Below are positions 14,775-58,275 of a stretch of 64,000 nt of DNA, piece by piece. The DNA is from a virus. The DNA is taken from UHGV virus genome UHGV-0076294, one strand, 5' to 3'. The translations under genes were made by a program, and so were the position numbers. The first letter of the stretch is position 1, and the number at the start of each line of letters is the position of its first letter. Below the pieces are notes generated by a model, which searched no databases, was not told the DNA's origin, and saw nothing but the letters and a program-made list of their open reading frames with translations.

Positions 14775-14788
14775 GCTAAGGAGTCGTT

Positions 14789-16868: not shown

Positions 16869-16899
16869 TTAAAACCACCTCATTTTCAAAAAGAAGTCA

Positions 16900-21097: not shown

Positions 21098-21101
21098 CAC
21101 C

Positions 21102-21140
21102 TACCCTACTCCCAGACAGGAGTAGGGTATTTTCATTTTT
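21102..21140 (+). terminator. rho-independent terminator; stem identical to the one at 1777
   Basis: TACCCTACTCC cagaca GGAGTAGGGTA, then TTTTCATTTTT. Confidence 0.8.
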
Positions 21141-21160
21141 ACCCTAAAGGAGAATTTACC

Positions 21161-29241: not shown

Positions 29242-29259
29242 TTTCTACCTCTTTAAGAT

Positions 29260-29279
29260 GGGGGTGGTTTCCCACCCCC
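29260..29279 (-). other. G-rich hairpin without U-tract between the giant gene and the 733-aa gene (GGGGGTGG gaaa CCACCCCC on the mRNA strand)
   Basis: 8-bp GC stem with a GAAA loop, 8 nt after the stop; the SD of the next gene follows. Confidence 0.5.
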
Positions 29280-29286
29280 GTGTTTA

Positions 29287-32200
29287 TTAACCCGCACGTC
29301 TAACGTTAAGCTGTCGTGCTGGCTGTTCAACGGACATTTGTCGTGATGCTGAGCCTGCTGGTGCCATAGGTTGGGTCGATACGGTGTTTTGTACCGGCTG
29401 CGGACGTTGTTTAAGAATCGTGACAATCTCTCTGAGATACCCCGCCGATTCTTTCGCAACAGCCAACTGCTGGACACTAATCGGATCACCGCTACTGAGT
29501 GTAGGCCCGTTTTGTGCATCAGAAGTAACCGCAGGTGCCGGTTTACTCGTTGCTGCTACGCGCTGCACAGCGCCTTCTTTCACCTTCTCGACATCTTCTT
29601 CAGGCAACCCTTCGTTTCTAGCTCCAGCCGCAACGGTCTCCGCAATCGTAGAGGCGTCGCCGCCAGCACTACTACCGCCAGGTGACGGTACTGCCGGACC
29701 ACCACTGGTTGCAGCTTTGACATTGTCTGCACCCATCGCACCTTTCTCTGCTAACGCATCGTCACGACGCGCAGCATTCGATGCGGGCAAGTTATCCGTC
29801 GCTCCAGAAATTGATGGATCGTTAGCTGCTCCTGCTGCTACCGCTGGAGAGGAGGCAACCGCAGGCGTTAGCCCTTTCACCATGTCTTTCGTTGAAGCTG
29901 GGTTAGCCGCAATTTCGTTTGTCGCCACAGCACCCATACGGCGGTTCAGTTCATTAATAACTTCGCCAACAGTACGAATACGAACAATCTGTTCGCCTCG
30001 CATTTCGTAGAAGACTCCCTTATTACCTCTAAGGATTTGAGGAGTAATACCTTCTGCTTTGTCGGCTGGCATGTTCGGATTCTGCCGCCATGCATTAAGG
30101 AACTTCTTACCACCGCCTGGACCCAAGAAGTGATACAGATACGCAACAGCCGGGGGCGGTTCTACACCACCCAGGTCTTTCTGCGCCTGCATGATATTAT
30201 CACGAATAAACTGTACCCCGAGGATGGTATTTGCCCACGGGTCATACTGGTTTACTTGCGGAATACCGTACCGACGAGAATACCCCTTCATCATTCCAGA
30301 CCACGTACTGTCGATGAACTGGAACAACCCTGCTGCTGACGCACCTGGGTTCTTGACGCCGTATCTGAAACCAGATTCAGCTTTCGCCATCGCAATCGCA
30401 ATCGCAGGCGGAACACCTAAGGTATTTGCGACATCTGCAATCATTGCTTTAACGCCTTCTACGTTAGGTGTCTTACCACTACCCAGTTTACTGATTGGAT
30501 ATTTCTCAGCCAAGGTTTTGTAATCACCTTCTTTGACGTCCCCGAGTTTAATCCCGGATTGGCCCGTAGAGAACTTCGCGTAATTGCTGATCCCCATCTC
30601 ACCCACAACTTGAGATAAGTCACCCGGTGTACCGTAAGACGACCCACCGTTTGGCAAGTACCCATCGTTAGACGCTGTACCCCAATCAACGACACCTTTA
30701 AAGCGTTCTTTGCCATCTTCGTCGGTTTGGTACATTCTCGTCGCACGATCGGCTTTCTGCCACTTCGCACGTTTACCTGCTGCGGGAGTAGAGCGCAGGG
30801 TGTTACGAACAGCCAGGTCAGGTTCTTTTGACAGTTCTTTCAGGTTGGCAAGTTCAGTAGCAACAGAACCTGCATCAGTGTTTGCTTCCTCGCCTAGCGG
30901 GTTGAATGGAATCTCCCACACGGACTGTCGAATACCGCCCTTCATGTTGTAAGCGCCACGAATCATCAACGCCAATTCGTACATGAACCCACCGGATACT
31001 TTCAATTCGGTAGGGTCTGCTTGCGGAATGTAACGTTTCAGACCAACGACGTAGGTCATATACGCCGGTAAGAAACGGTTGTAGAACCAGTTCTTACAAC
31101 GCTCCTCTTTAGGACCACCTATCAAGTCAGGCGAGATAACCGCAATGGCTTCTTTCCAGTTGCCTTTATAGGTACAGTTCTTCACATCAATGTCTTTCAA
31201 CACGTTCTTCTCTAACAACGTGAAAAGATTACGCGTTGTTTGGTTGATAGTAACCGCACCGTAGGTTTTCCACCTGACCGATTCCAGGTCTTCCAAATCG
31301 CTTTTCTTCGGTAATGAATGCCAGTCAACTTGGATTTGAACCTGCTCAGTCCCGTCTTCCCATCCTTCAACCTTCGCAACTTTCTCGTTACGTTCAGCAT
31401 CCGCATTCGCCAATACCTGACTGGTTTCAGCAACGGACGCAATTTTGTGGCCTTCGACAGCGTCACGCATACCTGAACGTTGTTTCCGTTTGTCGTCAGT
31501 ACGCATGTTGATTGACCGCCACACACGTTCCTGTGCTTCGACAACCTCTTCCCCTGACAAGAACTCTGCCGGAGTAAAGGTAACGAAATCCCACGCTTTA
31601 GAGAACCAACCCTGGTTAACTTTACGCGGGTCAGTCAACGAACGGAATTCCGCAGAATCTTTACCCATCTTCATTTTGTTGTAGAGGGTAATCATATCCG
31701 CTTTCGACACTTTCTTCGGATCACCAACATCTGCCAAAGCGATATCGTTATCCATAGACTTCAGTGCTGAAATCCAACGGAGGTAAATCGGTGCGAAACG
31801 TTGTAGCATAAACGCAGTAAATGCTAACATCTCACCACGTTCTTCCAAGTTTACACCAAACCCTTCTGCGAGTTTCTTCACGTCTTCGGAAGACAAGCCA
31901 CGTAATTGTGCTTCACCCCCTTCGGTATACGAGACGTAAGGTTTCAAAGCGTCTTCTAAATAACGGGCTTTCATACCGTCTTCAGAAGACCACTGGTCGT
32001 AGTCACGGAAACCGTATTGTGCCAGACGCATATAGTCGAGGTACTGCGCTTTCACACGGGTAGCGCATTTATACGCCCAATAACCCAGACCAGCGGCAGT
32101 CGCACCGATCACAATTGCAGGCCAACCCACCGCAGCTACCACCGTAGATGCAGCTGAGGCTACCGCAGTCACCGCCGGAACCGCTAAACGCTGTACGGCA

Positions 32201-35200
32201 AACTTACCAACATTCCACGCTGCTTTACCGATGAACCCGGTAGGTTTAAAAATACCCCACTTCGCAACTTTACCCAGTATGGAACCCACCGTACCTAAGA
32301 TACTCACGATTGGTCCTACTAACGGTAGCCCTTTGAGGAAGTCCATCACCCCGCCTTTACGTCCTTTCTGTTCGGCGGATTTCTTGGCTTTCTCTTCTTC
32401 CTTAGAACGTCTACGACGACGGAAGAATTGGAAGTAGTCGCGTTTTTCATCATTGGCTGCCGGTTTGTTACGTTGTCCGAACTTACTGAACATCGTACGA
32501 ATCAAGCCATCAGGCGCACCAGCACGTTCCGCAGAGTCACGCATGGTGTTAAACCAGGACATTTCCTGGAGGTTAACCATCCGGTTCAAACGTTCCAGTA
32601 ATGCTGAACCAACACTCTTCGCTTTCTGCTTACCTTTGTTGATAACGCGCCCTGCGCTATCCGTTGCGGTTTCGAAATCCTCCTTCGCTGCGTTAATCAC
32701 GCGTGTTGGAGAAACCTTACCACGGGCGTATAAGTGTTGGCGGTAAAACTCAGCAACGTCATCGTCACGACCTGCTAAACGAGACTCCGCCCGATAACGT
32801 GTACCGATATCGTAGCGTGGATCACGGAAGCTATCCACCGTTTCGCCAAAGCGTCCACGGAAACGGTCAAACCACCCTTTACCCGCAGCACCCCAACGAG
32901 ACAGTCTATCGCCAACACCCTGACGGAAACGTGAGAATCGGTCACGTTGTCTGCCTCGCCAATCCCGGAAACTCTGGAAATAGTCTTTAAACCCATCGCG
33001 GAAATCCTTAACGCGGTTAAGCATCCCTTTGATAGATTTCGACCCAACGTTTTTCTCCAGTTGCTCCGTCCAGGATTCATCTTCAGGCTCACCATCTAAA
33101 CGACGGTTAAGGAGTTTATAGATACGAATCAGGATATGGTTGGTCTTACGGCCATTCGACCAGGAGAACATGCTGAAACCGCCACCAGAACCCCCGTCCT
33201 TACGATTCTGCCACCACCGGGTAAGCGGGTTGTCGGTCGCTAACTCTTTGAATTTCTCAAAGCCACGTTTTGCATTGTTCCACAAACGAGCAGGCATTCC
33301 GGTTACACGGGAAATCATGCTTTGTAAACGTGTTTTCTCACTGCCTTCAGGAATCTCGTTAAGCCACTCACGTGCTTTCTCAAAGATAGACGCTGCTCTT
33401 GGTGAAATTAGACCAATAAGTTTCTTCGGTAAGTTAACAGCTTTGTTTACCGCTGTACCTGCTTTACCGGAGATATACTGGAACAGGGCCTGGAGTTTAC
33501 CGCCTTTATAGAAGCGCAGTTTACCCGCAGCCGCTAAGTCCGCCGCTGCGAGAATCAAGTTCCCGGCTTCGTCAACAATATCACGACCCAGCTTAATGTC
33601 GTCTAACGAGCGGAGTTGTACCAGTTTGTTGGTTTTAGGGTCAGCCTGATAATACTCACCTGCCTCTAAACGGTTTCCTTGTAAAACAACATTGCCTTTC
33701 TCGTCGTAGATGTCTCGAACACCAAGAACGCCTTTCCCGAACGCTACTGCTGAATTCCAGCCTGTGGACAGCGTACCAGTAACTAAACCTTTCAGTCGTT
33801 CAAAAACACCTGGACCGTCAGAAGACCCACCGGAGAACTTCCCACGGATAAAACTGCCCAGTGACTGTAAACGCCCTTTTCCTCTCAGGAACATGTTCTT
33901 CGCAAAACGACCAGCGCCCGTACCGGTGTCCCAAAGTACGCCCGCCCAACGACGGAACAGCCCGCTTTCACCAAGCACAATGCGCTTACGTTTGCGTTTG
34001 TTGCCGGTACTACCCGCGTCTTCGGATGCGACACCCTCACCGTCACGACCACCACCTAAGCTTGCCAACAGAATACCTTCTTCATCCATGTTCTTGACAT
34101 GTTTCAGAATTTCCTGCACGGTGTTGGATTCGGATTTGTTACGGATAGCATCAACGATTCTATCAAACTGTTGCTCTAAACCCGCATTAGTGTCAGGCCG
34201 TTCGCTTAACAGTTCAACAAAGTTGGTGGATTTTTCACCGTAGAGGACAGCAGCGAGTTGTCGTGCTGACAGCCCACGGCCACCACGTCCACCTTTACCT
34301 CTAACGGTGTCGATAGTCGACTCATCACCGGTTACGGAAGCGTCTACACCTAAACGACGCAAATAGTCACCTAACGCAGAACCGTTTTTCAGTTTGCGCT
34401 GGATTTCTTGTTCACGCGTTAACGAACGACCAGAGCGAGTTTTCCCCATGGCCAGGTCGTTGTATAGCGTATACGGATCGTTAATGTCTTTATCTACATC
34501 AAACCGATCGTTCTTCGCATCGTACTTAAAGATACCTGCGTCACGTAACGCATTCTCACCGTAGATAATTGAAGCTTCGTCTACCGTGTTTTGACGTGCA
34601 CGAATTGTTGACTGAATAGCTGAAATCTTACCAGCAATCTCATTGCTAAGTTCATGATGCCCACCAACCAGTTCCGCAGAACGGGCTTCTAAGACCGCCT
34701 GAATCGCTTCTACCGCGTTTGCATTCATGTAACGATACATGTGCATCGGGTCTTTCAGCAGACTGCCTACGTCGAATGCCTTACCTTCAGACGCACGGGA
34801 TTCGATATAGTCCGCCAGCGCCTGGCGAGTTTTCGAATCCAGAGTTTTGTCTTTGTCGATAAAGTCAACGGTTTCGTTAATGTACTGCTGTAAACGTTTA
34901 CGCTGTTCGTCATTAGCAACTGCCTTACGTACGCGATTGCCAATAACTTTACGATCCACCATACCTCGCGTGGTCAGGTCATAAACCTGATCGTGGTGTT
35001 CGCCATATCCACGACGAATAGATTTGTTAATCTCCGTCAGCAAGGTCGGGATGACTTCCGTGATGCTAAGATATGCTTTACGGTCGAACTTCGCTGCTGC
35101 TGATAACGCCTCTGCTGAACGTTCTTCTAAAGCTAATCCCTCACGACGCAGCGGTGTCACTAACCCCATCTCGTGCATTAAACGGAAGACAGTGGCCAAT

Positions 35201-36420
35201 GGACCATCTATCTCACCAGCTATCGCTGAGTTAGAGATAGAAGATAAGTTACCGAACCCGTAGCGTGCCAACTGAAGCCGTTTCATGACTTCTGGGTTCT
35301 TTTCTAACTCACTGCGTGTCCAGTTCTGTAAACGTTCTACTTGCGGTTGTAAGAATCGTTTTGCTAACCAACCACCGGCAAACCCTGCGACTTTACCTCG
35401 GCTATTCGTACGACGACGTTCTGGCGACAGTGTAGAACTGTCTTCCATGTCGAAGTCGTCTTCCTGACCCATTGACAGAACTTGTTCTAATAACCCACGT
35501 CCGTCACTGAAGATATTCGAAATCTTTTTCTTCGCGTTCTCACGGATTTGTTCAATGAACGAATCTGCGTAACGTAAGGGGTTCATCCATTCAGCGGCTT
35601 TACGTTTTACGTTAGCCCAACGAATTTCAGAGAATTCCTCTTTTGCATAATCCGGCAACGCGGTGTTTTTAACAATCGCTTCAAGTGCCGGAGTGTTACG
35701 GCTAAACTCGTCCTGTTTAAGTTTAGCAATATCTTGCAATGCGAATAACGTACGGTATTGCAGCTCTAGCTGTTTACGCTGAACGTTAAGCATCACCCCG
35801 CGACTTAAACTGGTCGTCAGGTTAACGTCTTTCGCAATACCGATAACCGTCTGGAACAGCGCATCGGACTTCATGTCCTTGATGGTGTCACGAAGACGGT
35901 CTTCTACCATTCCTTCCTGAACTTCACGTTGTTGTTCAGGTGTTTGTGGGGTACCTGCAAAAACAGTGTCTAACTCACGATCCATTAACGCTTGTTTAGG
36001 ATCGTAATTCCCGTAATCGTACTGGTCGCTTTTCGCCCATTTATCGATCTTACGGGTTACGCTGTCAGGCAAATACCGTTTTAGGGTTGGGCCTAATTGA
36101 CGAGCTTGTGCCTTCACCACGCGGGAGGTCTTTTCAATCTCGTCTTTCGTATGGGCCAGAATGTCTTGACCTGCGGCTTTGACGTTCTTATAACCTTCAT
36201 AAGCGTCAGACGCCGGTTTTGGCATTCCTTTTAAAATGACCTGATCACGTTTATTTTCGGGCCAGATAGTCGACAATGCCGACTTACGGGCAGCACGAAA
36301 TGTGTCCATGACCGGGTTACGCGATTGGTCTTGTTGACGAGGGGGCTCATCAAAATCGTCCCAGTCGTCCATGTTATCAAGATCGATTTCATCGAAATCG
36401 TCTTTACCTTTTTTAGCCAT
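29287..36420 (-). CDS. giant virion protein with lytic transglycosylase (SLT) domain; tape-measure/cell-puncturing lysin candidate (phiKZ gp181-like)
   Basis: 2377 aa. Acidic N-terminus, central hydrophobic cluster, Arg/Phe-rich repeats, SLT block AMAKAESGFRYGV..AAGLFQFIDSTW..YDPWANTILGVQFI, and an Ala/Ser/Gly/Pro-rich tail. Confidence 0.85.
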   Translation of the reverse strand: MAKKGKDDFDEIDLDNMDDWDDFDEPPRQQDQSRNPVMDTFRAARKSALSTIWPENKRDQVILKGMPKPASDAYEGYKNVKAAGQDILAHTKDEIEKTSRVVKAQARQLGPTLKRYLPDSVTRKIDKWAKSDQYDYGNYDPKQALMDRELDTVFAGTPQTPEQQREVQEGMVEDRLRDTIKDMKSDALFQTVIGIAKDVNLTTSLSRGVMLNVQRKQLELQYRTLFALQDIAKLKQDEFSRNTPALEAIVKNTALPDYAKEEFSEIRWANVKRKAAEWMNPLRYADSFIEQIRENAKKKISNIFSDGRGLLEQVLSMGQEDDFDMEDSSTLSPERRRTNSRGKVAGFAGGWLAKRFLQPQVERLQNWTRSELEKNPEVMKRLQLARYGFGNLSSISNSAIAGEIDGPLATVFRLMHEMGLVTPLRREGLALEERSAEALSAAAKFDRKAYLSITEVIPTLLTEINKSIRRGYGEHHDQVYDLTTRGMVDRKVIGNRVRKAVANDEQRKRLQQYINETVDFIDKDKTLDSKTRQALADYIESRASEGKAFDVGSLLKDPMHMYRYMNANAVEAIQAVLEARSAELVGGHHELSNEIAGKISAIQSTIRARQNTVDEASIIYGENALRDAGIFKYDAKNDRFDVDKDINDPYTLYNDLAMGKTRSGRSLTREQEIQRKLKNGSALGDYLRRLGVDASVTGDESTIDTVRGKGGRGGRGLSARQLAAVLYGEKSTNFVELLSERPDTNAGLEQQFDRIVDAIRNKSESNTVQEILKHVKNMDEEGILLASLGGGRDGEGVASEDAGSTGNKRKRKRIVLGESGLFRRWAGVLWDTGTGAGRFAKNMFLRGKGRLQSLGSFIRGKFSGGSSDGPGVFERLKGLVTGTLSTGWNSAVAFGKGVLGVRDIYDEKGNVVLQGNRLEAGEYYQADPKTNKLVQLRSLDDIKLGRDIVDEAGNLILAAADLAAAGKLRFYKGGKLQALFQYISGKAGTAVNKAVNLPKKLIGLISPRAASIFEKAREWLNEIPEGSEKTRLQSMISRVTGMPARLWNNAKRGFEKFKELATDNPLTRWWQNRKDGGSGGGFSMFSWSNGRKTNHILIRIYKLLNRRLDGEPEDESWTEQLEKNVGSKSIKGMLNRVKDFRDGFKDYFQSFRDWRGRQRDRFSRFRQGVGDRLSRWGAAGKGWFDRFRGRFGETVDSFRDPRYDIGTRYRAESRLAGRDDDVAEFYRQHLYARGKVSPTRVINAAKEDFETATDSAGRVINKGKQKAKSVGSALLERLNRMVNLQEMSWFNTMRDSAERAGAPDGLIRTMFSKFGQRNKPAANDEKRDYFQFFRRRRRSKEEEKAKKSAEQKGRKGGVMDFLKGLPLVGPIVSILGTVGSILGKVAKWGIFKPTGFIGKAAWNVGKFAVQRLAVPAVTAVASAASTVVAAVGWPAIVIGATAAGLGYWAYKCATRVKAQYLDYMRLAQYGFRDYDQWSSEDGMKARYLEDALKPYVSYTEGGEAQLRGLSSEDVKKLAEGFGVNLEERGEMLAFTAFMLQRFAPIYLRWISALKSMDNDIALADVGDPKKVSKADMITLYNKMKMGKDSAEFRSLTDPRKVNQGWFSKAWDFVTFTPAEFLSGEEVVEAQERVWRSINMRTDDKRKQRSGMRDAVEGHKIASVAETSQVLANADAERNEKVAKVEGWEDGTEQVQIQVDWHSLPKKSDLEDLESVRWKTYGAVTINQTTRNLFTLLEKNVLKDIDVKNCTYKGNWKEAIAVISPDLIGGPKEERCKNWFYNRFLPAYMTYVVGLKRYIPQADPTELKVSGGFMYELALMIRGAYNMKGGIRQSVWEIPFNPLGEEANTDAGSVATELANLKELSKEPDLAVRNTLRSTPAAGKRAKWQKADRATRMYQTDEDGKERFKGVVDWGTASNDGYLPNGGSSYGTPGDLSQVVGEMGISNYAKFSTGQSGIKLGDVKEGDYKTLAEKYPISKLGSGKTPNVEGVKAMIADVANTLGVPPAIAIAMAKAESGFRYGVKNPGASAAGLFQFIDSTWSGMMKGYSRRYGIPQVNQYDPWANTILGVQFIRDNIMQAQKDLGGVEPPPAVAYLYHFLGPGGGKKFLNAWRQNPNMPADKAEGITPQILRGNKGVFYEMRGEQIVRIRTVGEVINELNRRMGAVATNEIAANPASTKDMVKGLTPAVASSPAVAAGAANDPSISGATDNLPASNAARRDDALAEKGAMGADNVKAATSGGPAVPSPGGSSAGGDASTIAETVAAGARNEGLPEEDVEKVKEGAVQRVAATSKPAPAVTSDAQNGPTLSSGDPISVQQLAVAKESAGYLREIVTILKQRPQPVQNTVSTQPMAPAGSASRQMSVEQPARQLNVRRAG
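30061..30423 (-). other. SLT (goose-type/Slt70-like) lytic transglycosylase domain inside the giant protein
   Basis: Catalytic Glu in AKAESGF is encoded at 30376-30378 (residue 2015). Followed by GLFQF and the Y..N motifs typical of the family. Confidence 0.8.
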
Positions 36421-36449
36421 AACGTTTAATCCGTATCAGGAGATTTAGC

Positions 36450-38075
36450 GTGAATAAACTTAATTGGGTTGACTTTTATCTGCTCAATGTAAACAAGTCT
36501 CTTGTGTCGCGATTACGACCCGTCACGACCACAGATACTTTTCAAGGGTTGACAAAAAACTTTCACCCTGAAGGGTTGTACTCCACGGAGATTTTCGGTC
36601 TTACGGGAAGTGAAGCCCGAGACTCAACGTTTTCTTACATTGATATTAAATTAGATATCATTTCGCCGACGGTGTGTTTGGCGTTATTCCAACTAAAACA
36701 ACTCTACGAAGAAATTTGTTCTGGAAAACGCTACGCAACCTGGAACGAAAAAGAAAAAGATTTTGAACCGGCTTTGCCTGGCGACGCTGGCGCAGATACC
36801 GGTTTTAACTTTTTCCTTAGTCACTACAACGACTTAAAACCCGGACGTAACGAATCGTTACAACGTGACGAAACGGTGGATTTCTTCGAGAAGTTCCGTC
36901 CCGTGAGTCTTAGCCGCTATGTTCTCGTATTACCCGCGGGTTTACGTGATTTGGTGGTTAGACAAGACGGTAGGGAACAGGAAGAGGAAATCGGTGGGTT
37001 ATATCGTCGTTTGATTTCTTTGGCCAGGGCGATTCCTGACCGTGCTACACGGGTTGAATTAACGAACCCTGTGCGATGGAAACTCCAACAAACCTTTAAC
37101 GAAATCTGGATGTACTTCTTTAACATCCAGGACGGTAAAGGAGGTTTCCAACGTCGTAAAGTGACGTCGCGTAAACTGATGAACGGGACACGTAACGTAT
37201 TGTCCTCATTCTCCACAGGCTCTAAATGCATGGGGCGTGAGGATGCGATTCGACCGACCGACACCAAAATTGGTTTGTATCAGGGTCTGAAAGCGTTGCT
37301 ACCTGTTGCGCAATACCAGATACGTGAACGTTACCTCGGTAACATTCGTGCTGGCGATGGCAACCTTTATGGCGTAAACACCAAAACGCTTAAACGCGAG
37401 TTCTTGGAGGTTGGGGGTCGTGTTTACGACACCTTTACCACAGACGACGGTATCGAAACATTAATTAACCGGATGGAAGCTCGCGAGCTTCGTCATCAAC
37501 CGTTAATGATTAACGATACCCATTACGTCGCACTGGTCTACCAAGACAACAAACATTTTAAGGTGTTCTACGATATCGATGAACTGCCTAAAACGTTTGA
37601 CCGTAAAAACGTCCACGGAATGACCCTGGTAGAATTACTCTACTTATCGGGTTACGAACTGTGGAACAACTATTTCGGTTTCGTTACGCGTTATCCCGTC
37701 ACCGGTCGAGGCTCGACGTACTCATCGACCATAAGATTGGAGACCACCACGTCATCTTTATACCTAAAAGAACTGGAAGATGACTGGGAGACTGAAAAGC
37801 CACACGGAGCTATCAGTTATCCTGACAGGTCGGTTCCAACCTTTGTTGAGTCGATGGCACCGCACCCGTCACGATTGGGTGGCTTAGGGGGTGACTACGA
37901 TGGTGACACCGGTTCACTTAACGCGCCTATGTCGCAAGAAGCACTCGAGGAAAACCGTAACTGGATACACTCGAAGAACTACTGGTTCGATTCTGACGGG
38001 AATTTCAAAATCAATCCTGTCAACAACGTGATTAAACGTGCGACGCAAGCGTTATTAAAGAATCCAAAAGGCTAA
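36450..38075 (+). CDS. multisubunit RNA polymerase beta' subunit, N-terminal fragment (phiKZ gp180-like)
   Basis: 541 aa, GTG start with SD AGGAG 7 nt upstream. VLVLPAGLRDLV, VTRYPVTGRGS and GGDYDGDTGSLNAPMSQEALEE align with RpoC VLPPDLRP, NRAPTLHRLG and [22 protein letters not shown]. Confidence 0.85.
   Translation: MNKLNWVDFYLLNVNKSLVSRLRPVTTTDTFQGLTKNFHPEGLYSTEIFGLTGSEARDSTFSYIDIKLDIISPTVCLALFQLKQLYEEICSGKRYATWNEKEKDFEPALPGDAGADTGFNFFLSHYNDLKPGRNESLQRDETVDFFEKFRPVSLSRYVLVLPAGLRDLVVRQDGREQEEEIGGLYRRLISLARAIPDRATRVELTNPVRWKLQQTFNEIWMYFFNIQDGKGGFQRRKVTSRKLMNGTRNVLSSFSTGSKCMGREDAIRPTDTKIGLYQGLKALLPVAQYQIRERYLGNIRAGDGNLYGVNTKTLKREFLEVGGRVYDTFTTDDGIETLINRMEARELRHQPLMINDTHYVALVYQDNKHFKVFYDIDELPKTFDRKNVHGMTLVELLYLSGYELWNNYFGFVTRYPVTGRGSTYSSTIRLETTTSSLYLKELEDDWETEKPHGAISYPDRSVPTFVESMAPHPSRLGGLGGDYDGDTGSLNAPMSQEALEENRNWIHSKNYWFDSDGNFKINPVNNVIKRATQALLKNPKG
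37893..37907 (+). other. catalytic metal-binding loop DYDGD of the beta'-like subunit
   Basis: Codons GAC TAC GAT GGT GAC, residues 482-486. Confidence 0.8.
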
Positions 38076-38078
38076 TCA

Positions 38079-41000
38079 ATGCTGCTCATTAAACAGTTTA
38101 ACCAACGCTTCTCTGTGCGTAAAACAGACGAGTTTGGTAATCCGAGGATTATCCCGCTCGAGAAGCTCCAGATACCACGAGGCTCTATACTGCACGTCGT
38201 GGATCTCGATCAGGTGGTCTTAGCGCCACCTGCTACGCTGGAAATCATCCAGCCGTTGGAAAAACCTGCACAAATTCGCCACCACTTTAAACTTCCCGAA
38301 GAAGGGATCAGTGGGCATCCACGTAACAAACCTGTGCAGGGGCAAGAACGTGCTATCTTTGCGTACCATCGCGCTAACCGTCCAATTCGTCGCCTGACTT
38401 CAGACGACCTGATTCGTAAAGACTTAAAAGTTCTCCTTATCGAGAACTACACACCGATGTTATCGCATTACTACTATCCAGACACTCAGTTAGCCTGGTA
38501 CGATAGACTGCGTAACATCCAGCTGTTAATGACTAACCAGTTCAAATACGACACGCAAGAATACATGCGTCAAAACTACTTCGTGATTGAGCTGGGGTCA
38601 ACGTTACCGTCTTTCCAGAAGTTCCAAACGACGTATAACGATCGTGTTAAAAGCAAGATTGAAAAGTTCCAGGACTTTAACCTGTTGTGGTTATTGGAAC
38701 TGTTCGCTTGGGCATACGGTAAACAGTCCGATTCTCTGTTTGCAGGAATGGACTTAACGCAACTGTCTCGAATGAACTTCATCTTCACCCACAACAGCGG
38801 CTTTACGTCGATGAACATGGGTGTCGTGGAGAAGATGCGTAAATCGTCCGGTGGTCGTTTAAGTGACGATCAAATGGCCAGGATGTTCTATCGTACGTTA
38901 GTGCGTGTAATGACACAAGCACCGTCTAATGCGTACGAAGCTGAATTCCTGACACCGGAAGGTGATGAACGTATCTTTGTTAAGGACATCGAAGAGGATA
39001 CCGTTGACGTCGTTGACGATACAGACGTTGTTAACGACGCTGTGGTTGAATCGGATAACGCTTTCGATGAAAAAGAAGACCTCGTTATTGAGGAGCCGAA
39101 AGAAGACGTTAAGCCGACGACTATCGTTATCGAAAAAACGATTGCTCACGATGACATTATCAAACAGGAAGCGCAGAAACTGGCTGAGGCGGGCCGCTTA
39201 AGCTCCAAAGCGTATCAGTTCCTGTCTGATTCGACCAAACGTTTCGTTCAGTTACCAAACCCGTACAACCCGAAAGAGACTTACGGCGAAGCATTAACCA
39301 TTCACGAAAAAGACATTGCCGTGAAAGCGGAACCGAAGAAAGTCCAGCGACTGGTTACGGATGAAGGTTGGGCAGAAAACGTCACCGACCAAATGGTGAA
39401 ACAATACAACCAGACCATGATGAGTAAAGACGTGCTGGCAGCAGTCGCCAGCTCGCAGCGTCTTGGTTTGGCTATTCACAACCACACGATCGAGAAAGAG
39501 ATTTCCGTTACGGGAACTATCGAACACCACACCCTGCGAGTTCAACCGATTGGTGGTGAACCGACGACAGTGCGTTTCTCTATCCCTGGTTTAACCGAAG
39601 ACGGTACCTGGGTAGCAAACGGTGTTGAATACACCATGCGTCGTCAGCGTGTAGACGTGCCGATTCGTAAGGTCGCCCCAGACACCGTAGCGTTAACTAC
39701 CGCTTACGGTAAAAACTTCGTACGTCGTAGTGACAAAGTCGCAAACGACTACGGCCGTTGGTTAACGAACGCGATTATCACGCGTGCCGTAGACCCGACC
39801 AACACGGAGATCACAGACGCACGACTCGCGAACGTTTTCGATCCTACTGAGAAACTTCCTCGTCAGTACACGGAGATTGCACGTCGTATCGCCAGCTTCA
39901 ATGCAGGCGGGTATATGTGGAACTTCGATTATAAAGAAGCGGTTAACTTCTTTAATGACGAACAACTTACTGACGCAAATAACGTTGAGATGTTGCCGGT
40001 TGCGAAACGTCCGCGCAGTGAAGTTATTGTGGTGATGGATACCAAGTCCATGCTCTATACCGTTAAAGGTAAAGAGTGTACACCACTGGGTACCATCTTG
40101 GAAGTGCTTGGTTTCAGTAGCCAGAAAGCGCCAAGAGAAATGACTGAGCTTTCACTGATGGGCAAATCGCTCTCACTGGGCTTCATCTTCTCGTTCTATT
40201 TAGGTCTGCAAGGGATGCTTAAACATTTCGGCATTCAGTACGAAATCGTCCCTGTTGGCCAACGTGTAGATAAGAGCACGTACGATTCTATTATTCGTCT
40301 CCAGGACAGTAAGTTCCTGGTAACGTGTGATAACGATCAGCAACGAATGATTCTACACGGTCTGGATAAGTACCTGAAACACCTGGTGGCTTATACCGAG
40401 TCCGAAGTCGACCGCGAAGACATTTACCTGAACTTAATACGTGATGCAGATGGGCTAACCCCACGCTACATCAACGAGCTGAAACAAATGCGGGCCGCGT
40501 TTGTTGATGACATGCACGCACGTATCCTCAGGAAAATGGGTGAACCGGAAACCTTTATCGGGCTATTGGAACGTTCTAACGAACTGTTACAAACCGACCA
40601 CTCTTTACCGGAGATTAACGGTGATGAGATGATGTTCTTAGGGAACCAACGTATTTCCTACCACATCTACACTGCGATGGTCAGGGCGATGCGTAACTAC
40701 AACAACGCACCGAACAGTAACCGTAAGTTCGAGCTTACTCAGGACATGATTTGGGGCGCAATTAACTCCGACCCGTCTGTTCTGTTAGCGCCGGGTGCTA
40801 ACCCTATCCAGTCGATTAAAGAGAAAGACGTTATCACCATGGGGGGTACGGGCGGCCGTAACCGTAAAACAATGGTTTATCACACGCGTGAGTTCCAACC
40901 GAGTGACCTGGGTATTGTTTCCGGTAACACGGTGGATAACGGTGATGTAGGTATTACTGCTTTCGCCACTAACAACCCACGTTTCGATACCGTTGACGGC

Positions 41001-42245
41001 ACAACCTATAAACGGGATGAAAAGAAACTGAAACCGAGCGACACTCTGTCATTTATTGACGGTCTCGTGCCGGATACCCTGATGGATGACGCTAAACGTC
41101 AAAACTTCGTTGGGATTCAGTTAGGTTCTGCCACCAGTTGCAACGGCGCTACCACTACCCCTTATCGTACCGAACAGGAGAAATTTGTCGCTCACCGTAC
41201 GTCGGTGAAACACGCACGCGTTATTGATAAAGCAGGTAAAATCACCGGTCTGTCTAAAGACCATATCGAAATTACGTACGAAGATGGAAGTAAAGAAGCC
41301 TTTCCTCTAGGGCGCTGGTTCGGCCCCCACGAAGGTACCTTCTATCCGCACACCCTGGTGACTCGCTGGAAAGCCGGTGACAAACTCCCGGCCGGGGCAG
41401 TCATCACTTATAACGAGCAACACTTTGAACCCGATATCTACGACCCTACTCAGGTTTCCTGGAAAAACGGGGTGCTGGCTACCGTCGCTTTAATCGAGGC
41501 TGAAGAAGTAATCGAAGACTCCAATGCTATTTCTGAACGGTTCGCGAAGAAAATGGTTGGGCAGGTTACTAAGCTGAAAGAAGTGGTGATTAACAGCAAC
41601 CAGATGCTCCTGGAAATCGTTAACGAAGGGGAACACGTTGACGTCGACACAATCCTATGCACATTTACTGACGACCTTACGGGGGATATGAGTACCTTTA
41701 GTAAGGAAGCAGCACAAACGTTGCAAAGTTTAAGTTCGTACGCACCTCGTGCTGGGGTTCGTGGTATCGTGGATAAAATCGAAGTCGTGTATCACGGTGA
41801 AACCGAAGACATGACGCCTTCACTGGCAGAACTGGTACGCAAATACGATCGTATTCGTCGTAAAGCAGCGTTGGCTGTTAATCGTGGCGATCCGGTATCA
41901 GGGAGTGTTAATGGGGATTACCGTGTAGAGGGTGTACCGTTAGCCTTTAACTCGCTTTGTGTTCGATTCTTTATTACGCACGAAGTTGAAATGGCCGCAG
42001 CGGATAAGATGGTTATTGCTAACCAGCTGAAAACCACTGTACAAGAAGTGATGTACGGGGAAAACAAAACAGAAGATGGCGACGACATTGACATTTTGTT
42101 CGGTCGTGATTCTGTCGACGCACGTATTGTAGGTTCTATCCAACGAATCGGTACCGCAAATGCTGTGGGTGAACAAGCAGGGATTCTTATCGGTCGTATT
42201 CTCGACGGCGAGTCCGTGCCTGAGTTACCAGCGACACTTAAATAA
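38079..42245 (+). CDS. multisubunit RNA polymerase beta subunit, large N-terminal fragment (phiKZ gp178-like)
   Basis: 1388 aa. HTREFQPSDLGIVSGNTVDNGDVGITAFA (cf. HYGR.CPIETPEGPNIGLI), AADKMVIANQLKTTV (cf. GDKMAGRHGNKGVIS) and DIDILFGRDSVDARIVGSI (cf. VDIVLNPLGVPSRMNIGQI). Ends where the 15063 module begins in the RpoB alignment. Confidence 0.75.
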   Translation: MLLIKQFNQRFSVRKTDEFGNPRIIPLEKLQIPRGSILHVVDLDQVVLAPPATLEIIQPLEKPAQIRHHFKLPEEGISGHPRNKPVQGQERAIFAYHRANRPIRRLTSDDLIRKDLKVLLIENYTPMLSHYYYPDTQLAWYDRLRNIQLLMTNQFKYDTQEYMRQNYFVIELGSTLPSFQKFQTTYNDRVKSKIEKFQDFNLLWLLELFAWAYGKQSDSLFAGMDLTQLSRMNFIFTHNSGFTSMNMGVVEKMRKSSGGRLSDDQMARMFYRTLVRVMTQAPSNAYEAEFLTPEGDERIFVKDIEEDTVDVVDDTDVVNDAVVESDNAFDEKEDLVIEEPKEDVKPTTIVIEKTIAHDDIIKQEAQKLAEAGRLSSKAYQFLSDSTKRFVQLPNPYNPKETYGEALTIHEKDIAVKAEPKKVQRLVTDEGWAENVTDQMVKQYNQTMMSKDVLAAVASSQRLGLAIHNHTIEKEISVTGTIEHHTLRVQPIGGEPTTVRFSIPGLTEDGTWVANGVEYTMRRQRVDVPIRKVAPDTVALTTAYGKNFVRRSDKVANDYGRWLTNAIITRAVDPTNTEITDARLANVFDPTEKLPRQYTEIARRIASFNAGGYMWNFDYKEAVNFFNDEQLTDANNVEMLPVAKRPRSEVIVVMDTKSMLYTVKGKECTPLGTILEVLGFSSQKAPREMTELSLMGKSLSLGFIFSFYLGLQGMLKHFGIQYEIVPVGQRVDKSTYDSIIRLQDSKFLVTCDNDQQRMILHGLDKYLKHLVAYTESEVDREDIYLNLIRDADGLTPRYINELKQMRAAFVDDMHARILRKMGEPETFIGLLERSNELLQTDHSLPEINGDEMMFLGNQRISYHIYTAMVRAMRNYNNAPNSNRKFELTQDMIWGAINSDPSVLLAPGANPIQSIKEKDVITMGGTGGRNRKTMVYHTREFQPSDLGIVSGNTVDNGDVGITAFATNNPRFDTVDGTTYKRDEKKLKPSDTLSFIDGLVPDTLMDDAKRQNFVGIQLGSATSCNGATTTPYRTEQEKFVAHRTSVKHARVIDKAGKITGLSKDHIEITYEDGSKEAFPLGRWFGPHEGTFYPHTLVTRWKAGDKLPAGAVITYNEQHFEPDIYDPTQVSWKNGVLATVALIEAEEVIEDSNAISERFAKKMVGQVTKLKEVVINSNQMLLEIVNEGEHVDVDTILCTFTDDLTGDMSTFSKEAAQTLQSLSSYAPRAGVRGIVDKIEVVYHGETEDMTPSLAELVRKYDRIRRKAALAVNRGDPVSGSVNGDYRVEGVPLAFNSLCVRFFITHEVEMAAADKMVIANQLKTTVQEVMYGENKTEDGDDIDILFGRDSVDARIVGSIQRIGTANAVGEQAGILIGRILDGESVPELPATLK

Positions 42246-42251
42246 TCTCAA

Positions 42252-42272
42252 GGGGTGGGTCGCTCCCACCCT
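42252..42272 (+). other. G-rich hairpin without U-tract after the RNAP beta gene (GGGTGGG tcgct CCCACCC)
   Basis: 7-8 bp stem, 7 nt after the stop. Confidence 0.5.
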
Positions 42273-42292
42273 GATAAACTCCGGAGTAGAGA

Positions 42293-42586
42293 ATGTCTAT
42301 TTTAGATAAAATCAAACAGCGACACGGTATTCCGACTGGGAAAAATATTACCCAGCAAAGCGTGGAAGGCTATAGCCCTATCCAACGTACTAACTACGTG
42401 TCTTTGGGTAACACGGTTGAACTGACGACCGAAATCGTGCACGGATTGATTCGTGGCAATTCTGGAATGTCTGACCGTATCGGCGATCAGAAACTGCTGA
42501 AACGCGATATCGCTGACCTGGTGGGAGCTCGTTTGTACACGAAGCTTCAGGACGCCATCACCACCAACAAAGAGGCTAAACAATGA
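42293..42586 (+). CDS. hypothetical protein
   Basis: 97-aa ORF, SD CCGGAG; ATGA overlap with the next gene. Confidence 0.65.
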   Translation: MSILDKIKQRHGIPTGKNITQQSVEGYSPIQRTNYVSLGNTVELTTEIVHGLIRGNSGMSDRIGDQKLLKRDIADLVGARLYTKLQDAITTNKEAKQ

Positions 42587-44043
42587 TCAGTTTATACTCG
42601 CTGAACGCGGTTACCAACGCCATGAAGCTGTGCAAACAGCACAACATTCAACTCGGCACCGACGTTGACTCTCCGGTTGACCTGTTAAACCGTGCGGTAG
42701 ACCCATCGCGTGTTTTCGATACCACCATTACTGACGAACAGTTCTTCCAAGAATTGCCAGCAATCACTCAGCTGAAACGTCCGACGGAGGCAACGTCAGA
42801 AGCATCCGTTATCCGTGACGGTGCCATTGAGCCAGAAGCGCTGCGTGTTGACGATCATGAAACTACGCTGTTCGAACTGAAGAACATGGCAATTCAACGC
42901 TGCAACGGGATGCTTGATTTCGCCCGTAACGTGGTACAGCCGTTCGTTCAGTTGGTTATTCAGAACAACGTTATCGACGAAGTTAAACCGTTGGTAGAAG
43001 ACTGGAACCTGATTCCGGTGGGTATCGACAGCTGTGTTGATTCTCCAGTTGTCCAGGCGCTGGTTCAGGAAATCGCTAACCCGATGGGTAACGGGACGAC
43101 TTACGACCCGATTAATTTCGACGTTCCAACCAACATCGAAATCCCAGAAACCGGTGTTAAGGCGTACGACGAATTAGTACGTAGCCTGCTTAACGATTTG
43201 GATATTAGTATTTACGATGCGGCTAAACTGATCCTGGCCGGTAACAACACCGTACCAGTTGCAAGCAACGCACCGATGATTCTGAAAGAGCGTGTGCTGG
43301 TTCTGCTGCTGTCTTCCTACTACATCGAACGTCCTTGGCCTGACTCAGGCGTTGACGCTCTGAAGTGGAAAGCAGAGATGGGTCGTGCTTACTACACCTC
43401 TATCGGTTGGGTTTACGGTTTCGAAAAAGAAATCCTGAACCGTGTCGCGACAGGTAACATCATCTACAGCTACGACACCGATAAGAAAGACGTGTACATC
43501 TGTCAGGAAACGATGGATGACTATCTGTCTAAAGGTGGTATCGTTGAAGGTCTGCTGGGTGCTATCTATCTGATGGACGAAGGCGACTATAACGTTTCTG
43601 CGCGCGTTCCTTCGCTGCTGGAAAACCAGAATACGTACGTCGACGCTTATAACCGTCGTGCGATTATTACGCAGAAGAAAAACGAGCAGGACTGGGTAAC
43701 ACGTAACCGTCAGTCACTGAAAACAGCATTCTCTCTGGCTATCGACCAGCTTGACCAGGGATACTTCGATAACGGAGAAGACCAGCGTACGCGTGAAGAT
43801 GTGAAGCGTTGGGTCATGGCAAGTTGCGACACCTTCTTTAGCAATGCTGATGACGACATCACGCTCTTTATTATCCAAACCGCGTGTAACGACGTGTTCC
43901 GCGTATGGGAAATTGGCCCACTGATGCGGACGATTCACCAGGCGATGGTGGATAATCAAGACCCGTCACAAGCAGCAACCAGTTGGATGATTGACTACGT
44001 TCTGGACTGGATTTCAGGTTCTGTGTTTGTTGACAAACTCTAA
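42583..44043 (+). CDS. hypothetical protein, possible head/virion protein (position-based)
   Basis: 486-aa ORF with biased codon usage, upstream of the prohead protease. Confidence 0.7.
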   Translation: MISLYSLNAVTNAMKLCKQHNIQLGTDVDSPVDLLNRAVDPSRVFDTTITDEQFFQELPAITQLKRPTEATSEASVIRDGAIEPEALRVDDHETTLFELKNMAIQRCNGMLDFARNVVQPFVQLVIQNNVIDEVKPLVEDWNLIPVGIDSCVDSPVVQALVQEIANPMGNGTTYDPINFDVPTNIEIPETGVKAYDELVRSLLNDLDISIYDAAKLILAGNNTVPVASNAPMILKERVLVLLLSSYYIERPWPDSGVDALKWKAEMGRAYYTSIGWVYGFEKEILNRVATGNIIYSYDTDKKDVYICQETMDDYLSKGGIVEGLLGAIYLMDEGDYNVSARVPSLLENQNTYVDAYNRRAIITQKKNEQDWVTRNRQSLKTAFSLAIDQLDQGYFDNGEDQRTREDVKRWVMASCDTFFSNADDDITLFIIQTACNDVFRVWEIGPLMRTIHQAMVDNQDPSQAATSWMIDYVLDWISGSVFVDKL

Positions 44044-44060
44044 TGCAATAGGAGGTGATC

Positions 44061-44789
44061 GTGAGTGCGATTGAAACAGCCCGTCGTGATCCCACTAAGA
44101 TTCATGCGGACTTGGTAAATAACGGCACGGTCACCACTACCAAAGGGGGATGTTACATTTACATCCCCGTTGGGTTTGTGGCGAAAGAGTTGGCGGTTAT
44201 TTCTTCTACGGTAACGATTGTAGGTATTTTTGCTATCTCAACGGACCGTAAAACTTACGGGGTTTCCAGTGTCACTACACTGATTGAGATTACCCCAACG
44301 GCGTTTGAAGAGATTGACGTCTTTGGCGTCCCTTATTACGAATTTCGTTTTGACCCCGGCACAGTGGTTTTCCCCAACTGCAATTTACAGGTGTTATCCG
44401 CACCGATATACAACATTGCGTCGTATATTTACGACTTTGGTAACCGTCCTTTCTGGTTTACCGCTTACGACGATGCTGAACTATTAGCACCGGATAAGGT
44501 AAAGCGATGGAACGGTTTTACTGTATTTGCCGATCAGATTACCGCTGACGTTTATGCTGCACACACGCAGCGTAAAGTGGGTGATCCAAAAACGTTTTTC
44601 CGTTACACCTTGAAAAAAGACAGTGACTTAAACAACCCTGTCCAATTCATCCCACTACGTAGTGGGTCTCTTAACAAAACGTCGAGACTGGCGAAGCTTG
44701 CAGACGTAGAACTGAAACGTGGTATTCGTTCTGCACTACAAGTTGACCCAGTACGTGCCGAACCGCTCGAAGATTTGTTTATGAGGTAA
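44061..44789 (+). CDS. hypothetical protein, possible head/virion protein (position-based)
   Basis: GTG 44061 lies 5 nt after SD GGAGG; the track start GTG 44055 overlaps the SD itself. 242 aa. Confidence 0.7.
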   Translation: MSAIETARRDPTKIHADLVNNGTVTTTKGGCYIYIPVGFVAKELAVISSTVTIVGIFAISTDRKTYGVSSVTTLIEITPTAFEEIDVFGVPYYEFRFDPGTVVFPNCNLQVLSAPIYNIASYIYDFGNRPFWFTAYDDAELLAPDKVKRWNGFTVFADQITADVYAAHTQRKVGDPKTFFRYTLKKDSDLNNPVQFIPLRSGSLNKTSRLAKLADVELKRGIRSALQVDPVRAEPLEDLFMR

Positions 44790-44820
44790 TTTACCTTTTT
44801 ACTTTCACTCGGGGAAAACA

Positions 44821-47290: not shown

Positions 47291-47315
47291 TAGATATATA
47301 TTACTTAGGTGAGCG
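47291..47315 (+). promoter_or_regulatory. promoter-like motif, copy 3 (variant): TAGATATATATTACTTAGGTGAGCG
   Basis: Just after the terminator at 47230, 50 nt upstream of ATG 47365. Confidence 0.4.
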
Positions 47316-58228: not shown

Positions 58229-58238
58229 AAAATAAAAG

Positions 58239-58264: not shown

Positions 58265-58275
58265 TAGGAGTCTGT

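What the first reader, a model, noticed from the sequence alone, without database searches (positions are those of the whole stretch)
36421..42245. Split multisubunit RNAP genes (beta'-N with DYDGD, beta-N) head-to-head with the 2377-aa lysin gene across only 29 bp
ORF 36450-38075 aligns by eye with the N-terminal half of bacterial RpoC, including the Mg-binding loop, but reads DYDGD (37893-37907) instead of the canonical DFDGD. ORF 38079-42245 carries three RpoB-like blocks and stops right after the PSRMN-equivalent block. Split beta/beta' genes are established for phiKZ-like jumbo phages (virion and non-virion RNAPs). The position among virion genes suggests the packaged enzyme. The two divergent start codons (36420 and 36450) are 29 bp apart, so promoters for both units must lie inside the neighbouring coding sequences or far upstream.
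Basis: partly seen in the sequence, partly recalled or inferred. Interest (0 to 1): 0.55.

Follow-up and report, generated by a model that had tools for sequence, protein, structure and literature searches.

The report
Virion RNA polymerase genes, jumbo phage
These two genes encode the N-terminal beta-prime piece and the large beta piece of the split RNA polymerase that SPN3US/phiKZ-type giant phages package in their heads; this arrangement is already well described, so the finding is correct but ordinary.

Summary
ORF 36450-38075 (541 aa, GTG start, AGGAG ribosome-binding site) is the N-terminal fragment of an RNA polymerase beta' subunit. D482, D484 and D486 (DYDGD, 37893-37907) align with the NADFDGD catalytic loop. 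ORF 38079-42245 (1388 aa) is the N-terminal four-fifths of a beta subunit, preceded by a roughly 440-aa extension with no beta counterpart. It stops just after the PSRMN-equivalent block. Profile searches against solved structures and predicted-structure searches both return only beta' and beta chains.

The proteins are 87% and 77% identical to SPN3US gp240 and gp241. Those are virion RNAP subunits shown by mass spectrometry and amber mutants to be packaged and essential. The gene order matches phiKZ gp182-gp175.

DYDGD is a common variant in the family: 29 of 79 related loci have it, as do SPN3US gp240 and the AR9 beta' chain in the PDB.

The 29-bp head-to-head gap with the 2377-aa lysin gene is real and conserved (23-32 bp in the SPN3US-like clade, median 60 bp family-wide). 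It holds little beyond the ribosome-binding sites. Promoters embedded in the neighbouring coding sequence are therefore inferred but not shown.

This is a new member of a known kind, of low interest.

The parts
29287..36420 (-). 2377-aa tail-associated lysin / 'tail fiber' gene. It corresponds by position to phiKZ gp181 and to the SPN3US gene upstream of gp240, and is transcribed away from the RNAP genes.
   Evidence: ORF list. Pfam SLT domain at aa 1997-2082, E 2e-8. PHROG 3201 and 4067. Same position and orientation in phiEaH2, SPN3US and phiKZ.
36421..36449 (.). 29-bp divergent spacer. AGGAG (36438-36442) lies 7 nt upstream of the GTG of beta'N. The remaining ~17 nt lie upstream of the lysin ATG.
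   Evidence: Sequence. Alignment of 8 phages, with the ribosome-binding site and both start codons conserved. The gap is 23-32 bp in most SPN3US-like loci, and in 74 of 79 related loci it is 18-190 bp with a median of 60.
36450..38075 (+). Virion RNAP beta'-N subunit (541 aa), ortholog of SPN3US gp240 and phiKZ gp180. It contains the beta' motifs VLPAGLRD (aa 159-166) and DGKGGFQRRKVTSRKLMNGTRNV (aa 228-250) and the catalytic double-psi beta-barrel.
   Evidence: PHROG 2986, E 2e-235. Profile versus PDB. AF2 model, pLDDT 82.7. Foldseek search. 87% identity to SPN3US gp240.
37893..37907 (+). Mg-binding loop DYDGD (D482, D484, D486), aligned with NADFDGD of bacterial beta'.
   Evidence: sequence. 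(alignment to DFDGD). D482, D484, G485 and D486 are invariant in 53 homologs. F, Y or H at position 2 in 41, 29 and 7 of 79 loci.
38079..42245 (+). Virion RNAP beta-N subunit (1388 aa), ortholog of SPN3US gp241 and phiKZ gp178. Residues ~1-440 (38079-39398) are an extension with no beta counterpart and include an acidic linker around aa 296-345. Residues ~440-1388 correspond to beta from its N-terminus through the second double-psi beta-barrel and the PSRMN-equivalent block.
   Evidence: PHROG 3148. Profile versus PDB, E 8e-15, four collinear blocks. AF2 model of aa 440-1388, pLDDT 70.4. Foldseek E 8e-18. 77% identity to gp241. 1879 representative clusters in the family.
42252..42272 (+). GC-rich hairpin (GGGGUGGG-UCGCU-CCCACCCU) 7 nt after the beta-N stop, with no T-run. 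It may mark a 3' end or a stabiliser of a two-gene transcript.
   Evidence: Fold -15.5 to -18.9 kcal/mol, z = -1.8. This is weak evidence. A similar hairpin follows the lysin gene at 29258-29281.
44055..44789 (+). 244-aa ortholog of SPN3US gp244 and phiKZ gp176, the proposed beta'-C (fifth) subunit of the virion RNAP.
   Evidence: 86% identity to SPN3US gp244. PHROG 2926. The role is taken from PMC5105663 and PMC5694885.
15063..15731 (+). 222-aa candidate beta-C subunit, the counterpart of SPN3US gp218. It would supply the part of beta missing after residue 1388 of beta-N.
   Evidence: PHROG 3233 'RNA polymerase beta subunit', E 3e-93. Same length as gp218. By-eye match of HLVLRL...GQVVGPSKASGVSFPEAY to beta region I. 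No single-sequence PDB hit.

Best explanation
The window comes from an SPN3US/phiEaH2-like jumbo phage. Genes 36450-38075 and 38079-42245 encode the beta'-N and beta-N subunits of its virion RNA polymerase (vRNAP). Together with beta-C (15063-15731), the beta'-C candidate (44055-44789) and a beta'-M subunit encoded outside the window, they would form a five-piece homolog of the bacterial beta/beta' catalytic core.

By analogy with SPN3US and phiKZ (inferred from the literature, not shown here), the complex assembles in the cytoplasm and is loaded into the prohead as a unit. It is then ejected with the DNA and transcribes early phage genes without host RNAP.

Catalysis uses the D482/D484/D486 Mg loop of beta'-N. 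It also uses the beta-N active-site residues D1003/D1004, K1310, K1318 and R1349, which match beta EHDD, K1065, K1073 and R1106 by my E. coli numbering.

The two genes appear to be translated as a coupled pair (3-nt gap). They sit head-to-head with the giant tail lysin gene across 29 bp that hold little beyond the ribosome-binding sites. Their promoter most likely lies inside the first part of the lysin coding sequence on the opposite strand, and the lysin's promoter inside beta'-N. This last step is inference only.
For: ORFs and motifs were read directly. A 53-sequence beta'-N profile hits PDB AR9 nvRNAP beta' (3e-13) and bacterial, plastid and cyanobacterial beta'/gamma (1e-10 to 1e-6), with DFDGD aligned to DYDGD. 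An AF2 model (pLDDT 82.7) gives Foldseek E 8e-15 to 1e-11, with beta' chains as all 50 listed hits. A 52-sequence beta-N profile hits Thermus beta at 8e-15 in four collinear blocks. Its AF2 model gives Foldseek E 8e-18, and all 50 listed hits are beta. Catalytic and active-site residues are invariant or nearly invariant in the family alignments. Identity to SPN3US gp240, gp241 and gp244 is 87%, 77% and 86%. Synteny holds with phiEaH2, SPN3US and phiKZ gp182-gp175. The literature shows that SPN3US gp240, gp241, gp218, gp42 and gp244 are head proteins, that three of them have been shown to be essential, and that all five are lost together when any one of gp241, gp218 or gp244 is knocked out (PMC5105663, PMC5694885). 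phiKZ gp180 is packaged at about 10 copies per virion and is a middle-gene product (PMC10612078). Sigma70-like promoter matches are depleted in 29-45 kb, 4 against 16.7 expected.
Against: Curated Pfam RNAP models do not reach significance on either protein, and only 3 of 53 beta'-N relatives touch RNA_pol_Rpb1_1. The AF2 model of beta-N is poor (pLDDT below 50) across aa ~912-1017, which holds two of the conserved blocks. Foldseek TM-scores are low (0.3-0.4) because domain arrangement in the isolated subunits differs from that in the assembled enzyme. The beta'-M subunit is not in the window. No expression, virion or activity data exist for this particular phage. No conserved promoter motif was found around the junction.
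Confidence: 0.93

Rival explanations
1. The two genes belong to the second, non-virion RNAP (nvRNAP) of the phage, which is made after infection and transcribes late genes, rather than to the packaged enzyme.
For: The best solved-structure match of beta'-N is a non-virion enzyme, AR9 nvRNAP. This may simply reflect that no vRNAP chain was among the PDB matches.
Against: The proteins are 87% and 77% identical to the SPN3US virion subunits gp240 and gp241. They sit in the same lysin/protease head-gene block as phiKZ gp180 and gp178, which are annotated as structural head proteins. The other SPN3US 'RNA polymerase beta subunit' genes, at 29-33 kb of that genome and presumed to be nvRNAP subunits, have no counterpart in the window.
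Confidence: 0.02
2. The proteins are catalytically dead RNAP relics retained as structural or ejection proteins of the head. The F-to-Y change in the metal loop would be a sign of this decay.
For: Divergence from cellular RNAP is extreme: 12-14% identity in the structural alignments and no Pfam hit. RHGNKG of beta is replaced by ANQLKT.
Against: The three aspartates and the glycine are invariant in 53 homologs. The beta residues D1003/D1004, K1310, K1318 and R1349 are 90% or more conserved across 52 sequences at 27-83% identity. Y at this position occurs in 29 of 79 loci and in the AR9 nvRNAP beta' chain in the PDB. In SPN3US, vRNAP subunit genes are essential, and particles without the complex look intact but are not viable.
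Confidence: 0.03
3. For the junction only: beta'-N and beta-N have no nearby promoter. They would be reached by a long + strand transcript that starts beyond the three minus-strand genes (upstream of 26451) and runs antisense through about 10 kb, including the whole lysin gene.
For: No promoter motif could be identified within 330 bp of the junction. The nearest + strand gene upstream ends at 26396.
Against: The head-to-head arrangement with a short gap is kept in 74 of 79 related loci, which points to a local control region. The phiKZ nvRNAP recognises a simple TATG consensus, short enough to fit inside coding sequence. Ten kb of antisense transcription through an essential late gene would be costly. 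All of this is indirect.
Confidence: 0.15

Closest known systems
Salmonella phage SPN3US vRNAP subunits gp240 (beta'N) and gp241 (betaN), with gp218, gp42 and gp244
   Same: Identity is 87% and 77%, lengths are about the same (537 and 1401 aa), and the metal loop is also DYDGD. Neighbours, orientation and the 29-bp gap to the giant lysin / 'tail fiber' gene are the same.
   Different: This is a different phage: about 74-76% DNA identity to SPN3US, phiEaH2 and Stratton over this region. The gap between beta'N and betaN is 3 nt here and 18 nt in SPN3US. Nothing functional distinguishes them.
Pseudomonas phage phiKZ vRNAP subunits gp180 and gp178 (block gp182-gp175)
   Same: Gene order and orientation match: gp182-gp181 (-) then gp180 ... 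gp178-gp177.1-gp177-gp176-gp175 (+). The split points match, and the lysin is head-to-head with beta'N.
   Different: Identity to gp180 is about 33%. phiKZ has DFDGD, a 75-bp divergent gap, and an extra gene (gp179) between the two RNAP genes.
Bacillus phage AR9 non-virion RNAP (PDB 7S00/7S01), beta' N-terminal chain
   Same: It is the best solved-structure match by sequence profile (3e-13) and by fold (8e-15). It is also a split beta' piece and also carries DYDGD.
   Different: It is the non-virion paralog, shares only 14% identity, and comes from a uracil-DNA phage whose promoter-recognition subunit was not looked for here.
Bacterial RpoC/RpoB, and the naturally split cyanobacterial/plastid rpoC1 (gamma)
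   Same: The catalytic loop, the VLPPxLRP and GKxGRFR...GRSV motifs of beta', and beta regions B, D, F and H are collinear. Cyanobacteria also split beta' after the catalytic loop.
   Different: No CxxC pairs occur in beta'N, so the bacterial zinc motif is absent (read). RHGNKG is replaced by ANQLKT. Beta carries a ~440-aa extra N-terminal region. Beta is also split, and the full set has five pieces. No alpha, omega or sigma homolog turned up among the window ORFs scanned; about a third of the called genes were scanned.

Membership tests
Multisubunit RNAP beta' (N-terminal half with catalytic double-psi beta-barrel) | Three aspartates of the NADFDGD Mg-binding loop, in register | tested here: met
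   GGDYDGD (aa 480-486) aligns with NADFDGD in HMMER alignments to plastid, cyanobacterial and E. coli beta'. D482, D484, G485 and D486 are invariant in 53 homologs.
Multisubunit RNAP beta' (N-terminal half with catalytic double-psi beta-barrel) | beta'-like fold over the whole chain | tested here: met
   AF2 model pLDDT 82.7. Foldseek against PDB gives 584 hits at E<=1e-3, and the 50 listed hits are all beta'/gamma chains, E 8e-15 to 5e-11, aligned over 520-630 columns. TM-scores are only about 0.3.
Multisubunit RNAP beta' (N-terminal half with catalytic double-psi beta-barrel) | Match to curated Pfam RNA_pol_Rpb1 domain models | tested here: not met
   No Pfam family at E<=1 for this protein. 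Only 3 of 53 relatives hit RNA_pol_Rpb1_1, best E 1e-5. This reflects divergence beyond the reach of the Pfam models, not contrary evidence.
Multisubunit RNAP beta | Collinear conserved regions B, D, F and H of beta | tested here: met
   The family profile matches Thermus beta 118-134, 396-464, 533-656 and 822-872 in order, full-sequence E 8e-15. The same order appears with the shallow profile, which extends to the PSRMN block.
Multisubunit RNAP beta | beta-like fold | tested here: met
   AF2 model of aa 440-1388, pLDDT 70.4. Foldseek against PDB: all 50 listed hits are beta chains, E 8e-18 to 2e-14, over 1045-1240 alignment columns. Confidence is low across aa ~912-1017.
Multisubunit RNAP beta | Active-site residues (EHDD acidic pair, the two lysines of GDK...NKG, the arginine of PSRMN) | tested here: met
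   D1003/D1004, K1310, K1318 and R1349 are 90% or more conserved in 52 homologs and sit in the aligned blocks. The R, H, G and N of RHGNKG are not kept.
Multisubunit RNAP beta | Match to curated Pfam RNA_pol_Rpb2 domain models | tested here: not met
   No Pfam family at E<=1.
phiKZ-like jumbo-phage virion RNAP (vRNAP) | Orthology to subunits shown experimentally to be in the virion | tested here: met
   87%, 77% and 86% identity over full length to SPN3US gp240, gp241 and gp244. Their virion location and essentiality are reported in PMC5105663 and PMC5694885.
phiKZ-like jumbo-phage virion RNAP (vRNAP) | Conserved head-gene block: lysin | beta'N - betaN - ... - beta'C - prohead protease | tested here: met
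   Same order and orientation in phiEaH2, SPN3US and phiKZ. The protease ortholog lies at 44821-45624.
phiKZ-like jumbo-phage virion RNAP (vRNAP) | Full set of five subunits (betaN, betaC, beta'N, beta'M, beta'C) | tested here: inconclusive
   Four lie in the window. tblastn with the 431-aa SPN3US protein taken to be beta'M (gp42) finds nothing in the window. In SPN3US that gene lies about 170 kb away, so it is expected outside a 64-kb window.
phiKZ-like jumbo-phage virion RNAP (vRNAP) | Physical presence in virions, and early transcription independent of host RNAP | not testable with these tools
   Needs virion proteomics and rifampicin or 5'-end experiments on this phage.

The most novel reading that the evidence does not exclude
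The conserved ~440-residue N-terminal extension of beta-N (38079-39398) has no counterpart in cellular beta and no detectable homolog among solved structures. It could be the module that gives the virion enzyme sigma-independent recognition of its AT-rich early promoters, with candidates in this window matching AGAYAGATATTATT. Alternatively, or in addition, it could target the pre-assembled complex into the prohead. Separately, the back-to-back 29-bp junction could create overlapping antisense 5' leaders that couple lysin and vRNAP expression.
Probability: 0.12. Interest if true: 0.55.

Novelty: new member of a known kind. Interest (0 to 1): 0.14.

Why it matters
It matters little beyond annotation. 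Public records call identical or near-identical copies of these two proteins 'hypothetical protein', and they can now be named vRNAP beta-N and beta'-N. The region adds one more lineage to a large family: 1879 representative clusters for beta-N and 324 phage records for beta'-N. It also shows that aromatic F/Y/H variation in the metal loop and the tight head-to-head junction with the tail lysin gene are family traits. The open questions about vRNAPs remain. These are how the enzyme recognises promoters without sigma, what the beta-N extension does, and how the complex passes through the tail. This window offers no special handle on them.

Tried and rejected
1. Single-sequence phmmer of beta-N against the PDB gave only noise, such as laccases at E about 0.1. 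A family profile was needed.
2. A second word-indexed homolog search with alignment A1 returned the same 33 proteins and was wasted. The index-free representative search supplied the diversity.
4. beta-C alone has no PDB hit.
5. The search for an embedded promoter near the junction found nothing convincing.
   - The alignment of 15 close relatives from -330 to +300 shows ordinary codon-periodic conservation with no clear run of constrained synonymous sites.
   - A tentative AAGAC-N-TATG motif seen at two other divergent junctions is no more frequent than chance, 3 against 2.7 expected.
   - 6-mer enrichment in non-coding DNA recovered only AT-rich, ribosome-binding-site and hairpin words.
6. 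Transcription-start tables for phiKZ were not available as text.
7. The idea that DYDGD signals an RdRP-like (QDE-1-type) or altered chemistry was rejected. F, Y and H alternate freely among orthologs.
Full report
**What is in the sequence**

The ORF list and the raw sequence confirm three genes:
- a 2377-aa gene on the minus strand, 29287-36420;
- a 541-aa gene on the plus strand, 36450-38075, with a GTG start;
- a 1388-aa gene on the plus strand, 38079-42245.

The lysin ATG (read as CAT at 36418-36420) and the GTG at 36450 are separated by 29 nt. An AGGAG at 36438-36442 lies 7 nt before the GTG. The codons at 37893-37907 read D-Y-D-G-D, residues 482-486. The first gene ends at TAA (38073-38075), and the ATG of the second follows after 3 nt. 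The 2377-aa protein has an SLT lytic transglycosylase domain at aa 1997-2082.

**Where the window comes from**

The region matches SPN3US/phiEaH2-type jumbo phages of Salmonella and Erwinia at about 70-76% DNA identity; the best are Stratton and phiEaH2 at 76%. Both proteins fall in PHROG families named 'RNA polymerase beta subunit': 2986 at E 2e-235 and 3148 at E 0. Identical or near-identical proteins exist in a 224.8-kb IMG/VR contig and in Salmonella enterica assemblies, where they are labelled hypothetical.

**Identity of the 541-aa protein**

Alone, it gives only marginal PDB hits, but all are to beta' and lie on the expected motifs.

A 53-sequence family profile hits three groups:
- the beta' N-terminal chain of phage AR9 nvRNAP (7S00/7S01) at 3e-13;
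- plastid and cyanobacterial beta'/gamma at about 1e-10;
- E. coli-type beta' at about 3e-6.

In these alignments GGDYDGD sits on NADFDGD. D482, D484, G485 and D486 are invariant in the family.

An AlphaFold2 model (pLDDT 82.7) searched against the PDB returns AR9 beta' first (7.6e-15). The other 48 listed hits are beta'/gamma chains.

Curated Pfam models miss the protein and touch only 3 of 53 relatives. The family is a very divergent beta', not a textbook one.

**Identity of the 1388-aa protein**

The single sequence finds nothing meaningful in the PDB. A shallow profile of close relatives reaches Thermus beta at 6e-4, with three collinear pieces that include the C-terminal FGRDSVDARIVGS / LNPLGVPSRMNLGQ pairing.

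An index-free search of 1.8 billion representatives found 1879 related clusters. A 52-sequence profile built from them hits Thermus beta at 8e-15 in four collinear blocks, Thermus 118-134, 396-464, 533-656 and 822-872.

The acidic pair D1003/D1004, K1310, K1318 and R1349 are at least 90% conserved. An AlphaFold2 model of aa 440-1388 is moderate (pLDDT 70.4) and poor over aa ~912-1017. Its 50 listed PDB matches are nonetheless all beta chains, E 8e-18 to 2e-14.

Beta homology starts at about aa 440-500. The first ~440 residues, including an acidic linker around aa 296-345, have no beta counterpart.

**Virion versus non-virion enzyme**

The two proteins are 87% and 77% identical over full length to SPN3US gp240 and gp241. 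The 244-aa ORF at 44055-44789 is 86% identical to gp244.

In SPN3US these proteins, with gp218 and gp42, are head proteins by mass spectrometry. Genes 241, 218 and 244 are essential, and all five subunits vanish from particles when any one of those three is knocked out. The complex is therefore thought to assemble before it enters the prohead. gp241 is not proteolytically processed (PMC5105663; PMC5694885).

The gene block is syntenic with phiKZ gp182-gp181 (-) | gp180-gp179-gp178-gp177.1-gp177-gp176-gp175 (+). There, gp180 and gp178 are annotated as structural head proteins. In phiKZ the vRNAP subunits are middle-gene products, present at about 10 copies per virion, and the enzyme transcribes early genes (PMC10612078; PMC7598289).

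A 222-aa ORF at 15063-15731 falls in the beta-C PHROG. The 431-aa SPN3US protein taken to be beta'-M, and two larger SPN3US 'RNA polymerase beta subunit' proteins presumed to belong to the nvRNAP, have no homologs in the window.

**DYDGD**

Among 79 related IMG/VR loci the motif is DFDGD in 41, DYDGD in 29 and DHDGD in 7. SPN3US gp240 and the AR9 chain in the PDB both have DYDGD. The substitution is a clade-level conservative variant and carries no special meaning.

**The 29-bp junction**

The GTG start, the AGGAG and the lysin ATG are invariant in an alignment of eight phages from several genera. The annotated gaps in six of those relatives are 14-32 bp.

In 74 of 79 loci a long minus-strand ORF starts 18-190 bp upstream of beta'-N, with a median of 60 bp. 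The SPN3US-like clade sits at 23-32 bp, and phiKZ has 75 bp. The head-to-head arrangement is therefore ancient, and the tight spacing is a clade trait.

The genome is compact in general. Only 4088 of 64000 nt (6.4%) lie outside called genes. The other divergent junctions measure -35, 97, 62 and 39 bp.

Because the spacer holds little beyond the ribosome-binding sites, promoters must lie within coding sequence. I could not find them:
- conservation around the junction is ordinary codon-periodic conservation;
- a tentative AAGAC-N-TATG motif is at chance frequency;
- sigma70-like sites are depleted, 4 against 16.7 expected, which fits with, but does not prove, independence from host RNAP.

A GC-rich hairpin follows the beta-N stop at 42252-42272. 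Its fold is only marginally better than shuffled sequence.

**Verdict**

What is there is an ordinary ortholog of a described system, the five-piece virion RNA polymerase of phiKZ/SPN3US-like jumbo phages. Gene order, split points, catalytic residues and the divergent junction are all shared with characterised relatives. The only untested element is promoter placement at the junction, which needs 5'-end mapping.

Noticed in passing
window 7799-7812, 16899-16912, 47292-47305, 62076-62089 (all + strand): A recurrent AT-rich motif, AGAYAGATATTATT, usually followed by YNAGGTG. It sits in intergenic DNA 30-70 nt upstream of + strand genes. The core AGATATTAT occurs 3 times against 0.26 expected. 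It is a candidate phage promoter, possibly the early class read by the virion RNAP. It is absent from the 36-kb phiEaH2 stretch examined.
   Followed up: partly
window 62093-63250: The GTG called as the start of this ORF lies inside the promoter-like motif at 62076-62095, so the true start is probably a downstream codon.
   Followed up: no
window 29000-45000: Sigma70-type promoter-like sites are strongly depleted: 4 found against 16.7 +/- 4.1 in shuffles. This fits a phage that does not rely on host RNAP.
   Followed up: no
window intergenic regions, e.g. 1158-1218, 14744-14788, 21098-21160, 58229-58275; also 29258-29281 and 42252-42272: GC-rich hairpins built on GGGTAGGG/CCCTACCC or GGGGTGGG/CCCACCCC words recur between genes, some followed by T-runs. 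The words CCCTAC and TAGGGT are 6-7 fold enriched in non-coding DNA. They are likely terminators or RNA-stability elements.
   Followed up: partly
whole window; proteins P0001 and P0034; loci L008 and L089: Identical or 99%-identical copies of the two RNAP proteins occur in hundreds of database members attributed to Salmonella enterica isolates (serovars Chester and Wangata; contigs of 220-222 kb). They also occur in a 224.8-kb IMG/VR contig. A lytic-type jumbo phage appears to travel with sequenced bacterial isolates, through a carrier state, pseudolysogeny or contamination.
   Followed up: partly
window 2439-3872 (-) and 3838-4341 (+): As called, these divergent ORFs overlap by 35 nt at their 5' ends. 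Either one start is mis-assigned or this is an even tighter head-to-head junction than the one under study.
   Followed up: no
window 42583-44043 (+): A 486-aa ORF in the position of SPN3US gp243 (PHROG 3841). [quoted passage not shown] Here it lies between beta-N and the beta'-C candidate.
   Followed up: partly
window 10197-11129 and 11017-12024 (+): Two adjacent ORFs hit the same PHROG family of unknown function (6160). As called, they overlap by 113 nt. They are probably tandem paralogs, with one start mis-assigned.
   Followed up: no
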